Below are positions 13,206 through 13,904 of a DNA stretch of 64,000 nucleotides, piece by piece. Both the position numbers and the translations under genes were made by a program. Under the pieces are notes generated by a model. That model ran no database searches. It was not told the DNA's origin and was given only the letters and a program-made list of their open reading frames with translations. The stretch is taken from the sequence record MF327005; one strand, given 5' to 3'. Source of the stretch: Shigella phage Sf19. Numbering within the stretch: the first letter of the stretch is position 1; each line of letters starts with the position of its first letter.

Positions 13206-13276
13206 ACAGAAGACCAATTACAGCAAACAAACTTTTCAATTTCGCGCATAGAAATCCAAAAAAGATTTGGTCTGGT
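13206..13276 (+). ncRNA. structured element A: conserved termini CAGAAGACC...GGTCTGGT with AT-rich loop
   Basis: 5' cagaagaccaa pairs with 3' ttggtctggt; same termini as elements B-D. Confidence 0.5.
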
Positions 13277-13286
13277 CATTAAGAAT

Positions 13287-13358
13287 TGCGGGTATAGAGA
13301 AAGGGCGTCTCACATGTCTCATTAGCATGGTATCGGCAGGTTCGACTCCTGCACCCGC
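13287..13358 (+). tRNA. tRNA with CAT anticodon (Met or Ile-lysidine)
   Basis: D-stem gaga/tctc, anticodon arm catgt-ctcatta-gcatg, T-arm gcagg-ttcgact-cctgc. Confidence 0.65.
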
Positions 13359-13377
13359 CTCCAAATTTACAGAAGAC

Positions 13378-13447
13378 CGTTTACAGCAAACAAAACTTAA
13401 AATTTTATTGGAAAAATTTAAAAGAATACGGTCTGGTAATACTAAAC
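13378..13447 (+). ncRNA. structured element B (same family as A; stem agaccgt/acggtct)
   Basis: cagaagaccgtttacagcaaacaa...tacggtctggt; compensatory change relative to element A. Confidence 0.5.
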
Positions 13448-13449
13448 AT

Positions 13450-13522
13450 GGTTAGGAAGCACATAAGGCATGTGCGGTCGGCTGTTAACCGAATGGCACA
13501 GGGTTCGAATCCCTGACTAACC
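13450..13522 (+). tRNA. tRNA-Asn (anticodon GTT)
   Basis: D-stem gcac/gtgc, loop ctgttaa, T-arm caggg-ttcgaat-ccctg, CCA encoded. Confidence 0.7.
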
Positions 13523-13595
13523 GCCAAAATTTGGGAGAGAAGCGATTGCTCACCGATTTGTAAGGTGCAAGTCCTTAGCCTGAATAGAATAAAAT

Positions 13596-13680
13596 GCGTC
13601 GTTATCCCGTAGATGGAAGCGGTGGTGACTGTAAATCACTTGTCATTACGACTCGGTAGGTTCGACTCCTTCACGGCGCA
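13596..13680 (+). tRNA. tRNA-Tyr (anticodon GTA), long variable arm
   Basis: acceptor gcgtcgt/acggcgc, loop ctgtaaa, 85 nt, CCA encoded. Confidence 0.7.
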
Positions 13681-13689
13681 CCAAATAAA

Positions 13690-13763
13690 GGTTATGTAGT
13701 TTAACTGGTCAAAATACTCCCCTGTCACGGGAGATGATGAGGGTTCGAATCCCTTCGTAACCG
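13690..13763 (+). tRNA. tRNA-Asp (anticodon GTC)
   Basis: acceptor ggttatg/cgtaacc, anticodon arm ctccc-ctgtcac-gggag, T-arm GGTTCGAATCC. Confidence 0.8.
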
Positions 13764-13795
13764 CCAAATTTGAGAGGGCTTCTTAGCCCCTCCCT

Positions 13796-13822
13796 TAAAG
13801 AGTTCTTACGAGTATTCTTTAA
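13796..13822 (+). ncRNA. conserved hairpin with loop TTCTTACGAG (copy 1)
   Basis: aaagaGTTCTTACGAGtattcttt; second copy at 17373-17397 with compensatory stem change. Confidence 0.45.
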
Positions 13823-13826
13823 AGGA

Positions 13827-13904
13827 GCAGAAGACCAAATTCAGCAAGTCAATTTAATATTTCAAGCCAATTTAATTTTGAAAAATTTAAAACTTGGTCT
13901 GGTT
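13827..13904 (+). ncRNA. structured element C (same family as A/B)
   Basis: cagaagaccaaattcagcaagtcaa...cttggtctggt. Confidence 0.5.

What the first reader, a model, noticed from the sequence alone, without database searches (positions are those of the whole stretch)
13206..13904. Family of elements with conserved termini and compensatory stem changes
Elements A (13206-13276), B (13378-13447), C (13827-13904) and D share 5' CAGAAGACC(A/G)(A/T)-TTACAGCAAACAA and 3' GGTCTGGT ends. The two bases next to the conserved core covary: AGACCAA/TTGGTCT in A and C, AGACCGT/ACGGTCT in B and D. That pattern argues for a conserved RNA stem rather than a promoter. Interiors of A-C are AT-rich and variable. 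They could be processing sites, a small RNA family, or MITE-like insertions.
Basis: seen in the sequence. Interest (0 to 1): 0.7.

Follow-up and report, generated by a model that had tools for sequence, protein, structure and literature searches.

The report
Phage Ro60-partner small RNA family
Four small RNA genes hidden in the tRNA cluster of a Felix-O1-type phage belong to a widespread family, not described in the papers I could search, of Y-RNA-like partners of a phage Ro60-like protein; their signature (a terminal stem of free sequence next to the loop motif ACAGCAA) is also the hallmark of the enigmatic Class I RNAs of social amoebae.

Summary
Elements A (13204-13278), B (13367-13439), C (13824-13906) and D (13914-14045) share a 7-bp terminal helix, AGACCNN/NNGGUCU. 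A single-stranded (U)UACAGCAA motif follows the 5' strand and an unpaired G follows the 3' strand. They lie just downstream of ORF 11455-12870, whose AlphaFold model matches Ro60 over its full length. The same "handle" recurs on the same strand next to homologs of that gene. It is found in phages of enterobacteria, vibrios, mycobacteria, Listeria, Staphylococcus, Bacillus, Enterococcus, Campylobacter, Fusobacterium and cyanobacteria. Across 84 members, 99.8% of stem cells pair and all 7 pairs show compensatory changes. D and its counterparts carry a YrlA-type tRNA mimic: T arm, closed acceptor hairpin and D arm. My best reading is that these are Y-RNA-like partner RNAs of a divergent Ro60 family (DUF2828/DUF7788), made from the tRNA operon. 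Binding and expression are inferred, not shown. The handle matches the defining features of Dictyostelium Class I RNAs (stem + CCUUACAGCAA + 3' CUG). Rfam's Class I model hits only these elements, though below its threshold. I rate this a new variant of a known kind, of high interest.

The parts
11455..12870 (+). Gene for a 471-aa Ro60-like ring protein (helical repeat region + vWA domain), the predicted protein partner of the RNAs
   Evidence: Pfam DUF7788 5.9e-44 and DUF2828 5.3e-27; TROVE not hit. PHROG 850 'RNA-binding protein', 2.7e-178. AlphaFold2 pLDDT 88.4. The eight best Foldseek PDB hits are all Ro60/Rsr/phage Ro60 over the full length, E 1e-8 to 4e-7, TM 0.46-0.64. D279, S281, S283, T349 and D381 are invariant, a pattern I read as a MIDAS motif.
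12889..13008 (+). Two sigma-70-type promoter matches (12889-12917, 12979-13008) upstream of tRNA-Pro; likely drive the tRNA/small-RNA operon
   Evidence: 10 of 12 and 11 of 12 consensus matches. The next strong promoter match is at 14517, and no + strand terminator match lies in between. Function is inferred.
13204..13278 (+). Element A, short form. Outer helix 13204-13207/13275-13278; loop AGA 13208-13210 opposite G 13274; inner helix 13211-13217/13267-13273; motif UUACAGCAAACAA 13218-13230
   Evidence: MFE fold; covariance model R1 43.7 bits, E 1.5e-7; Rfam RF01414 21.3 bits. Lies between tRNA-Glu (ends 13199) and tRNA-Met (starts 13287).
13367..13439 (+). Element B, short form. Outer helix 13367-13370/13436-13439; inner helix 13374-13380/13428-13434; motif 13381-13393; unpaired G 13435
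   Evidence: MFE fold; R1 51.1 bits, E 1.6e-9; Rfam RF01414 25.3 bits. Lies between tRNA-Met and tRNA-Asn.
13824..13906 (+). Element C, short form with the variant motif AUUCAGCAAG (13839-13848). Outer helix 13824-13828/13902-13906; inner helix 13832-13838/13894-13900; unpaired G 13901
   Evidence: MFE fold; R1 29.2 bits, E 1e-3. The UUCAGCAA variant is common in other phages. Felix O1 and other relatives have the canonical AUACAGCAAG at the same place.
13914..14045 (+). Element D, long form. Same handle (outer helix 13914-13917/14042-14045; inner helix 13921-13927/14034-14040; motif 13928-13940; G 14041) enclosing a tRNA-like module
   Evidence: MFE fold; handle found by the stem search; RNAalifold consensus of 14 long forms.
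13952..14022 (+). tRNA-like module of D: hairpin 13952-13968 (UUUCU CUGGUAA AGAAA), T arm 13973-13989 (GAAGG UUCGAUU CCUUC), closed acceptor hairpin 13990-14005 (ACACGUU AC GGCGUGU), D arm 14008-14022 (GUGU AAUGGAA GCAC)
   Evidence: Read from the sequence. The T arm, acceptor hairpin and D arm are predicted independently by RNAalifold, and 19 of 23 pairs show compensatory changes. Counterparts in other phages hit Rfam YrlA at 29-48 bits.

Best explanation
A-D are genes for small non-coding RNAs of a Y-RNA-like family. I predict they are the partner RNAs of the Ro60-like ring protein encoded immediately upstream (ORF 11455-12870).

Each RNA has a constant 'handle' and a variable 'cargo'. The handle is a helix formed by the 5' and 3' ends. 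Its sequence is free, but its outer end is usually closed by A-U then G-C. The single-stranded motif (U)UACAGCAA follows the inner end of the 5' strand, and an unpaired G follows the 3' strand. In A-C the cargo is an A/U-rich loop. In D it is a tRNA mimic of the YrlA type (T arm, acceptor helix closed into a hairpin, D arm).

Steps shown here: the anatomy, the covariation, and the strand-specific association with the Ro-like gene across phyla.

Steps inferred:
1. The RNAs are transcribed with the tRNAs from the promoters at 12889/12979.
2. They are released by the tRNA-processing enzymes that cut the flanking tRNAs. The Felixounavirus-specific outer helix may protect the ends.
3. The ring protein binds the handle. 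The ACAGCAA strand would play the role that the 5'-strand motif (GGUCCGA or GNCGAA) plays for Ro60.
4. The cargo tethers or decoys host tRNA- or RNA-processing factors, tuning the protein's role in RNA metabolism and counter-defence.
For: - Protein. The fold is Ro60 over its full length, with a vWA domain whose invariant D/S/S/T/D pattern I read as a MIDAS site. Mycobacteriophage homologs are annotated 'Ro-like RNA binding protein'.
- Handle next to the gene. The handle lies beside homologs of the gene in phages of at least six bacterial phyla.
- Covariance model R1. On 1.12 Mb searched on both strands it gave 112 hits, all on the gene's strand.
- Covariation. In 84 distinct hits, 99.8% of 588 stem cells pair and all 7 pairs have double changes. 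The covariation score is 1.00 against 0.23 in shuffles (0 of 500 reach it), and slid registers pair in only 30-47% of cells.
- Motif counts. Exact ACAGCAA occurs 229 times on the + strand and 41 on the - strand. An adjacent stem of at least 7 bp is present in 125 and 10 of these; permuted-motif controls show such a stem 15% of the time.
- Coverage. About 71 of 92 loci have a member within 2.5 kb of the gene.
- Reverse test. Among viral contigs picked by the RNA pattern alone, 13 of 24 stem-bearing hits have the gene in the held stretch. All 13 are on the same strand, at a median distance of about 340 nt. For hits without a stem the figure is 3 of 57.
- Long forms. They fold as T arm + closed acceptor + D arm, with 19 of 23 pairs compensatory, and hit Rfam YrlA at E 1e-7 to 2e-2.
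- Literature. The Felixounavirus Bas63 protein gp130 was independently seen to be Ro60-like and to lie directly upstream of the tRNA block. It counters the Ppl defence, and its authors only guessed that Y RNAs hide among the tRNAs.
Against: - There are no expression or end-mapping data, and no binding data.
- gp130 alone, from a plasmid or inserted in T7, restores plaquing on Ppl. The RNAs are therefore not needed for that phenotype.
- The canonical Ro60-binding motif (GNCGAA) is absent, and no Rfam family reaches its gathering score.
- The seed members were picked with a stem finder, and the 84-member alignment is fitted to the model, so the pairing percentages are somewhat circular. The strand bias, the permuted-motif control and the reverse test are not.
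- About a fifth of the gene loci show no member in the sequence held.
- Some members lie in arrays far from the gene.
Confidence: 0.8

Rival explanations
1. The elements are cis-acting processing or insulator structures of the polycistronic tRNA precursor. They would be spacer hairpins that guide RNase E, RNase III or RNase P and have no function once released.
For: They sit between tRNAs, with no promoter or terminator of their own. The Felixounavirus-specific outer helix lies at the likely cleavage points. In several other phages the gene and the RNAs also adjoin tRNA clusters.
Against: The same handle occurs where no tRNA flanks it: mycobacteriophages, Staphylococcus phage, many marine contigs. 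It tracks the Ro-like gene rather than the tRNAs. An invariant single-stranded heptamer and a tRNA-mimic cargo are not expected of a spacer.
Confidence: 0.08
2. The handles are cis-regulatory operators through which the Ro-like protein controls its own mRNA or the operon. On this view they are protein-binding sites on a long transcript, not free RNAs.
For: In L017, L020 and L026 a 36-41-nt mini-handle lies directly on the 5' UTR or start of the gene. All members are on the gene's strand.
Against: Most members lie downstream of the gene (86 downstream, 24 upstream). They come in arrays of 2-6. Some carry elaborate cargo such as tRNA mimics and 230-260-nt domains. This is typical of trans-acting Y RNAs. 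The two roles could coexist.
Confidence: 0.07
3. They are MITE-like mobile insertions with terminal inverted repeats that have spread within the tRNA region.
For: They have terminal inverted repeats around an AT-rich interior, and there are four copies within 850 bp.
Against: Only one orientation is seen in the gene-oriented set (112 of 112). The positions are conserved across the genus. Repeat changes are compensatory or wobble-compatible rather than decaying. The CM finds no further copy in the other 63 kb of the window. Target-site duplications were not examined.
Confidence: 0.02
4. They are DNA-level signals (phage promoters or protein-binding sites), or D is simply a decayed or circularly permuted tRNA gene.
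For: TTTACA-17-AACAAT at 13913-13941 is a weak promoter match, 9 of 12. Rfam tRNA scores 28.8 bits on 13923-13997, just under the cutoff of 29. D holds all the tRNA arms in permuted order.
Against: Promoter-like matches are no more frequent than in shuffles (5 against 4.4). Covariation that preserves pairing is an RNA signature. The acceptor helix of D is closed by a 2-nt loop with no CCA. The same closed-acceptor layout covaries in 14 phages, so it is a maintained design and not decay.
Confidence: 0.03

Closest known systems
Bacterial and phage Y RNAs of the YrlA type with Ro60/Rsr (Rfam RF02553; Chen et al. 2014, PMC4201824; Thermus phage phiLo Yrl1/2, PMC12135203)
   Same: The RNAs are encoded next to a ring-shaped Ro60-fold protein, often in several copies. 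The 5' and 3' ends pair into a stem that carries the presumed protein-binding site, and the rest is variable. One member per genome carries a tRNA mimic made of a T arm, a closed acceptor hairpin and a D arm; the YrlA model hits these modules at 29-48 bits.
   Different: The protein belongs to Pfam DUF2828/DUF7788, not TROVE. The handle has ACAGCAA next to a perfect helix instead of the GNCGAA/CGAA or GGUCCGA bulged-helix motif. No member reaches the YrlA gathering score of 69. Window element D is not hit at all.
Class I RNAs of dictyostelid social amoebae (Rfam RF01414; Kjellin et al. 2021, PMC7919456)
   Same: A 6-7 bp stem of free sequence with compensatory changes joins the 5' and 3' ends. 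A conserved single-stranded motif follows the 5' strand directly: CCUUACAGCAA in amoebae, (N)NUUACAGCAA here, and exactly CCUUACAGCAA in many marine phage copies. Both have a 5' G paired to a 3' C that is followed by UG, and an A-rich tract before the 3' strand. The rest is variable, the length is about 45-65 nt, and the RNAs come in multi-copy families. RF01414 was the only non-tRNA Rfam family to hit A, B and D, and also members in L021 and L030.
   Different: Scores are 17.6-28.8 bits, against a gathering score of 41.5. The linker between helix and ACAGCAA is 3 nt in amoebae and usually 2 nt in phages. The amoeba genes are eukaryotic, with a DUSE promoter. Their only proven binder is the RRM protein Rnp1A. 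I could not verify that Dictyostelia encode a DUF2828 homolog.
Metazoan Y RNAs with Ro60
   Same: A terminal stem formed by the RNA ends is bound by a Ro60-fold ring. Loops are variable, and each genome has 2-4 paralogous RNAs.
   Different: There is no sequence similarity. Metazoan recognition uses a bulged helix (GGUCCGA/UUGACC), and metazoan Y RNAs have no tRNA-like module.
Circularly permuted or split tRNA genes
   Same: In D the T arm and the 3' acceptor strand come before the 5' acceptor strand and the D arm, and flanking complementary sequences bring the ends together.
   Different: The acceptor helix is a closed hairpin without CCA. No circularisation or BHB motif is evident. The layout is that of the YrlA tRNA mimic and is conserved as such.

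Membership tests
Y RNA / YrlA (Ro60-associated ncRNA) | Encoded adjacent to a gene for a Ro60 (TROVE + vWA ring) protein | tested here: met
   The adjacent ORF has the full-length Ro60 fold. The association holds across about 71 of 92 loci and in the reverse test. Caveat: the Pfam TROVE domain is not hit; the protein is DUF2828/DUF7788.
Y RNA / YrlA (Ro60-associated ncRNA) | 5' and 3' ends pair into a stem that carries the protein-binding site | tested here: met
   The terminal helix pairs in 99.8% of cells, and all 7 pairs covary. That it is the binding site is inferred.
Y RNA / YrlA (Ro60-associated ncRNA) | Ro60-binding sequence motif (GNCGAAN0-1G in bacteria; GGUCCGA bulged helix in animals) | tested here: not met
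   The handle carries ACAGCAA instead. The YrlA model aligns only to the tRNA-like core, and the outer helices mismatch.
Y RNA / YrlA (Ro60-associated ncRNA) | tRNA-like module (T arm, closed acceptor-like hairpin, D arm) in at least one RNA per genome | tested here: met
   Element D, 13973-14022. The RNAalifold consensus of 14 long forms has 19 of 23 compensatory pairs.
Y RNA / YrlA (Ro60-associated ncRNA) | Reaches the Rfam RF02553 gathering score (69 bits) | tested here: not met
   No hit on the window at E<=10. Counterparts in other phages reach 29-48 bits.
Y RNA / YrlA (Ro60-associated ncRNA) | Physically bound by the Ro60-type protein in vivo | not testable with these tools
   Needs RIP/CLIP or gel shifts.
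Dictyostelium Class I RNA (RF01414) | Short stem joining the 5' and 3' ends, structure conserved but sequence free | tested here: met
.
Dictyostelium Class I RNA (RF01414) | Conserved 11-nt motif CCUUACAGCAA directly after the 5' strand of the stem | tested here: met
   The core ACAGCAA is invariant in 29 of 29 seed members. The window has AAUUACAGCAA or GUUUACAGCAA. The full CCUUACAGCAA is present in L021, L022, L025 and others. Element C has the variant UUCAGCAA.
Dictyostelium Class I RNA (RF01414) | Conserved 5' G pairing with the C of a 3' CUG(U) end | tested here: met
   The G-C pair is present in 77 of 84 members, and the G after the 3' strand is invariant in the seed. In phages an extra A-U pair extends the helix.
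Dictyostelium Class I RNA (RF01414) | Reaches the Rfam gathering score (41.5 bits) | tested here: not met
   21.3, 25.3 and 17.6 bits for A, B and D; 28.8 and 28.2 bits for L030 and L021.
Dictyostelium Class I RNA (RF01414) | Dictyostelid nuclear gene with a DUSE promoter about 60 nt upstream | tested here: not met
   This is a phage operon with sigma-70-type promoters.
tRNA (including circularly permuted tRNA genes) | Open acceptor stem with a 3' CCA or discriminator end, and an anticodon arm in a cloverleaf | tested here: not met
   ARAGORN does not call D. Rfam tRNA scores 28.8 against a cutoff of 29, on a partial match. The acceptor helix is closed by a 2-nt loop.
MITE-like mobile element | Dispersed copies in both orientations at non-conserved sites | tested here: not met
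   All 112 CM hits in the gene-oriented set are in one orientation, beside the gene, at syntenic sites within the genus. Target-site duplications were not examined.

The most novel reading that the evidence does not exclude
The phage RNAs and the Class I RNAs of dictyostelid amoebae are the same kind of RNA: ligands of DUF2828/DUF7788 Ro60-like proteins, recognised through the module 'terminal helix + ACAGCAA + 3' (C)UG'.

This would give the orphan Class I RNAs, about 40 abundant genes per Dictyostelium genome whose mechanism is unknown 20 years after their discovery, a predicted protein partner and a Y-RNA-like mode of action. It would also imply that the RNP is shared, or was exchanged, between phages, giant viruses of protists (which encode DUF2828 homologs) and eukaryotes.
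Probability: 0.45. Interest if true: 0.92.

Novelty: new variant of a known kind. Interest (0 to 1): 0.82.

Why it matters
- **A large unexplored RNP.** Homologs of the Ro-like gene occur in 709 of 50,697 phage genome records, from mycobacteriophages to Listeria, Staphylococcus and jumbo vibriophages. The ortholog in a Felixounavirus is a transferable counter-defence gene.
- **An RNA partner to test.** Knowing the partner RNAs and their 7-nt recognition motif makes the RNP directly testable. It also explains unannotated gaps in many phage tRNA clusters and gives a search model for thousands of loci.
- **A distinct handle on a shared cargo.** A divergent branch of the Ro60 family uses a different RNA handle from canonical Y RNAs but keeps the YrlA-type tRNA-mimic cargo. 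That bears on how Ro60/Y-RNA systems evolved.
- **A possible answer for Class I RNAs.** If the match holds, a long-standing puzzle in Dictyostelium biology becomes a simple experiment: does a DUF2828 protein bind DdR-21?

Tried and rejected
**Searches that gave nothing useful**
- Sequence searches of the PDB with the protein and with its profile found nothing. Only the fold comparison showed Ro60.
- The afdb50 fold library was not available, so I could not list eukaryotic homologs by organism.
- I could not establish whether Dictyostelium encodes a DUF2828 protein. Literature searches on DUF2828, DUF7788, PF11443, IPR011205 and UCP015417 gave only plant, tardigrade and unrelated papers.
- Avesson 2011, Aspegren 2004 and Sim 2020 are not held. 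The supplements of Chen 2014 are not held, so I could not see which phage YrlA RNAs were already listed there.
- Full-text searches for ACAGCAA, UUACAGCAA and Ro-like/Y RNA/phage found no description of this handle.

**Ideas I rejected**
- Circularly permuted tRNA-Thr. This was my first reading of D. I dropped it once the closed-acceptor layout proved to be the conserved YrlA design.
- Promoter.
- MITE.
- The TTACAGCAA at 12045 inside the ORF. It encodes the conserved I-D-Y-S-K-L-P and is not hit by the CM.

**Limits of the controls**
- In bacterial and archaeal genomes the 14-base pattern gave mostly chance matches. One clean member was found, in a Bacillota MAG contig that also encodes the gene.
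- Outgroup 'Class I candidates' in Kjellin's Table S4 score about 25 bits in large genomes. Scores of that size are therefore not significant by themselves.
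Full report
**Where the window comes from.** The region matches 295 phage records. The best are Shigella phages Sf15 and Sf17 at about 97%, which are Felixounavirus relatives of Felix O1. The finding lies at the start of a cluster of 25 tRNA genes on the + strand. It sits immediately downstream of ORF 11455-12870.

**The observation.** It is confirmed.
- CAGAAGACCNNTTACAGCAAACAA occurs three times (13207, 13370, 13917), against none expected. Element C (from 13829) is a variant...AAATTCAGCAAG.
- Folding shows more: an outer helix of 4-5 bp, an internal loop (5' AGA opposite 3' G), the inner 7-bp helix, then the single-stranded motif.
- The outer helix also covaries within the genus: UUAC/GUAA becomes UUGC/GCAA; A has UGAC/GUCA; C has GAGC/GCUC.
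- B is really 13370-13440, and D lies beyond the stated end of the finding.

**Element D.** Its interior reads: a hairpin UUUCU-CUGGUAA-AGAAA, a T arm GAAGG-UUCGAUU-CCUUC, then ACACGUU-AC-GGCGUGU (an acceptor helix closed into a hairpin), UG, and a D arm GUGU-AAUGGAA-GCAC. I first read this as a circularly permuted tRNA. It is in fact the layout of the tRNA-like module of bacterial YrlA Y RNAs.

**The neighbouring gene.** ORF 11455-12870 is Pfam DUF2828 + DUF7788 and PHROG 850 'RNA-binding protein'.
- Sequence searches of the PDB find nothing.
- A confident AlphaFold2 model (pLDDT 88.4) has as its eight best PDB matches Ro60, Rsr and the Ro60 of Thermus phage phiLo, over the full length (E 1e-8 to 4e-7, TM up to 0.64).
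- D279, S281, S283, T349 and D381 are invariant in 35 homologs. From established knowledge of vWA domains, I read this pattern as a MIDAS motif.
- Homologs occur in 709 phage records, and those of mycobacteriophages are annotated 'Ro-like RNA binding protein'.
- A 2024 preprint found the Felixounavirus Bas63 protein gp130 to be Ro60-like, to lie directly upstream of the tRNAs, and to counter the Ppl defence system. Its authors only speculated that 'some tRNA genes are possibly Y RNAs'. That gp130 is the ortholog of this ORF is my inference from genus and synteny.

**The decisive comparison.** I fetched 80 viral contigs encoding homologs (38-96% identity) and annotated loci from phages of other phyla.
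- TTACAGCAA, or more generally ACAGCAA, turned up beside the gene on the gene's strand. Each time it was directly preceded by a 6-9 nt stretch whose perfect complement lies 35-260 nt downstream and is followed by G.
- The stems differ completely between lineages:
  - AGGUUCC, AGAUUAG, AGUAUAG and GGGAUGC in marine contigs;
  - UGGACNNN in mycobacteriophages;
  - AGGAAUC and AGAGAGC in Listeria phage;
  - AAGACAC in Staphylococcus and Bacillus phages;
  - AUGGUAC in Campylobacter phage.
- In a MAFFT alignment of 29 short forms, the only invariant columns are ACAGCAA and the G after the 3' strand. All 203 stem cells are Watson-Crick.
- A covariance model built from that alignment found 112 hits in 1.12 Mb searched on both strands, every one on the gene's strand. 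In the window it found only A, B and C.
- On 84 distinct hits, 99.8% of cells pair, all 7 pairs have double changes, and the covariation score is 1.00 against 0.23 in shuffles. Slid registers pair in 30-47% of cells.
- Because the seeds were chosen with a stem finder, I add controls that do not depend on that choice. ACAGCAA occurs 229 times on the + strand and 41 on the - strand, with an adjacent stem in 125 and 10 of these. Permuted motifs have such a stem 15% of the time.
- Variants UUCAGCAA, UGCAGCAA, UCCGCAA, ACUGCAA and ACAGCGA exist. Element C belongs to the UUCAGCAA class.
- About 71 of 92 loci carry a member within 2.5 kb of the gene.
- In the reverse direction, viral contigs were picked only by AGGNNNNTTACAGCAAAC. 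The gene was present in the held stretch for 13 of 24 stem-bearing hits, always on the same strand and at a median of about 340 nt, against 3 of 57 hits without a stem.
- In cellular genomes the pattern is mostly chance. One clean member lies in a MAG contig that also encodes the gene.

**Two or three cargo classes.**
- Short forms (50-80 nt) have A/U-rich interiors.
- Long forms (106-135 nt) occur in the window, Felix O1, a Klebsiella phage, Bacillus phage Tsamsa, Enterococcus phage Porthos, two mycobacteriophages and several contigs. They hold a T arm, a closed acceptor hairpin and a D arm. RNAalifold recovers the handle and all three arms, with 19 of 23 pairs compensatory. Rfam's YrlA model hits them at 29-48 bits, which is significant but below its cutoff of 69, and it aligns only to the tRNA-like core.
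- Marine contigs add a 230-260-nt form whose cargo is unknown.

**How it most likely works.**
- Shown here: a conserved, strand-specific, covarying RNA structure tied to a gene for a Ro60-fold protein.
- Inferred:
  - The RNAs are co-transcribed with the tRNAs from the promoters at 12889 and 12979. No + strand terminator match lies before the next promoter match at 14517.
  - They are released when the flanking tRNAs are processed.
  - The ring protein binds the handle. By analogy, Ro60 mainly reads the 5' strand of its Y RNA site.
  - The cargo tethers or decoys host tRNA- or RNA-processing factors, as Y RNA tethers PNPase to Rsr.
- The biological output is probably control of RNA metabolism and counter-defence.
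- A caveat: gp130 alone rescues T7 on Ppl. The RNAs are therefore modulators, or serve another function.

**Comparison with what is known.**
- The class, a Ro60-type protein with adjacent Y-like RNAs including a tRNA mimic, is known in bacteria and in some phages.
- New here: the handle; its universality across the DUF2828/DUF7788 branch; the identification of the actual RNAs in Felixounavirus; and the fact that no Rfam family covers them.
- The one non-tRNA Rfam family that hits the elements is Dicty_Class_I_RNA. It scores 17.6-28.8 bits on A, B, D, L021 and L030, and it hits nowhere else in the roughly 120 kb searched at permissive thresholds.
- Class I RNAs are defined by a short stem of free sequence joining the ends, the motif CCUUACAGCAA directly after the 5' strand, a conserved 5' G and a 3' CUGU, and a variable remainder of about 60 nt. 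Real sequences, such as DdR-21 GUUGACCUUACAGCAAAC...GUCAACUG, align column for column with the phage 5' halves. Many phage copies carry the exact 11-mer.
- The scores alone are not significant: genome-scale noise reaches about 25 bits. But the coincidence of an invariant heptamer at the same structural position, with the same closing pair and the same 3' tail, is unlikely by chance. My rough estimate is about 1e-4 per family with such an architecture.
- DUF2828 proteins occur in plants and in giant viruses of protists. I could not check Dictyostelium itself.

**Verdict.** The finding is real and can be explained. It is a new variant of the Ro60/Y-RNA theme, with an unexpected and testable bridge to an orphan class of eukaryotic RNAs.

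Noticed in passing
window 14044-14191: A 148-nt stretch between element D and tRNA-Lys folds very stably (MFE -51 kcal/mol) and is closed by a 21-nt inverted repeat. It has no Rfam match and no ACAGCAA handle. It may be another structured RNA of the operon.
   Followed up: partly
window 13598-13684: A tRNA-Tyr-like gene with a long variable arm is missed by ARAGORN (Rfam tRNA 22.8 bits). It is annotated as a tRNA-Tyr pseudogene in Felix O1.
   Followed up: partly
window 14856-14990 and 15131-15198: Two more tRNA-like sequences are not called by ARAGORN. The first has an acceptor stem and a T arm but an insert of about 60 nt. The second reaches Rfam tRNA 32.6 bits.
   Followed up: no
window 13527-13597: A 71-nt unassigned spacer after tRNA-Asn contains a T-loop-like AAGGTGCAAGTCCTT.
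   Followed up: no
L017 5965-, L020 5923-5963, L026 5950-5985: In KVP40-like and other contigs, a 36-41-nt mini-handle (stem + TTACAGCAA) lies directly on the 5' UTR or start of the Ro-like gene. This suggests the protein may autoregulate its own mRNA.
   Followed up: no
L021 7857-8112, L022 2990-3222, L030 4793-5032 and about 12 related contigs: A second family member follows the short one directly. It has the handle GGAUCG|GUACAGCAAAAAGU...CGAUCC and a 230-260-nt cargo of unknown structure, with no Rfam hit.
   Followed up: partly
L087 2290-2780 (Enterococcus phage Porthos): Each of three family members is preceded by a repeated hairpin module of about 45 nt (GGTTTT...GTTCC...GGAAC-ATAA). 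The middle member has the motif variant ACAGCGA.
   Followed up: no
L085 5802-7013 (Listeria phage LMSP-25): A gene annotated 'tRNA splicing ligase', which I take to be RtcB, lies 1.3 kb downstream of the Ro-like gene. This echoes the bacterial rsr-yrlA-rtcBA operon.
   Followed up: no
L155, L163, L136, L228: Arrays of 2-6 family members occur with no Ro-like gene in the stretch held for L155, L163 and L136. L228, a Bacillota MAG contig, holds three members together with the gene. L097 is a copy on the same contig as L018 but outside L018's held stretch.
   Followed up: partly
L042 12795-13238, L063 11287-11708: Phage-encoded tmRNA genes (Rfam 79-82 bits) lie a few kb from the Ro-like gene, together with tRNAs.
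   Followed up: no
window 12045-12053: A TTACAGCAA inside the Ro-like ORF encodes the conserved peptide I-D-Y-S-K-L-P. The covariance model does not hit it, so I take it to be a coding coincidence.
   Followed up: yes
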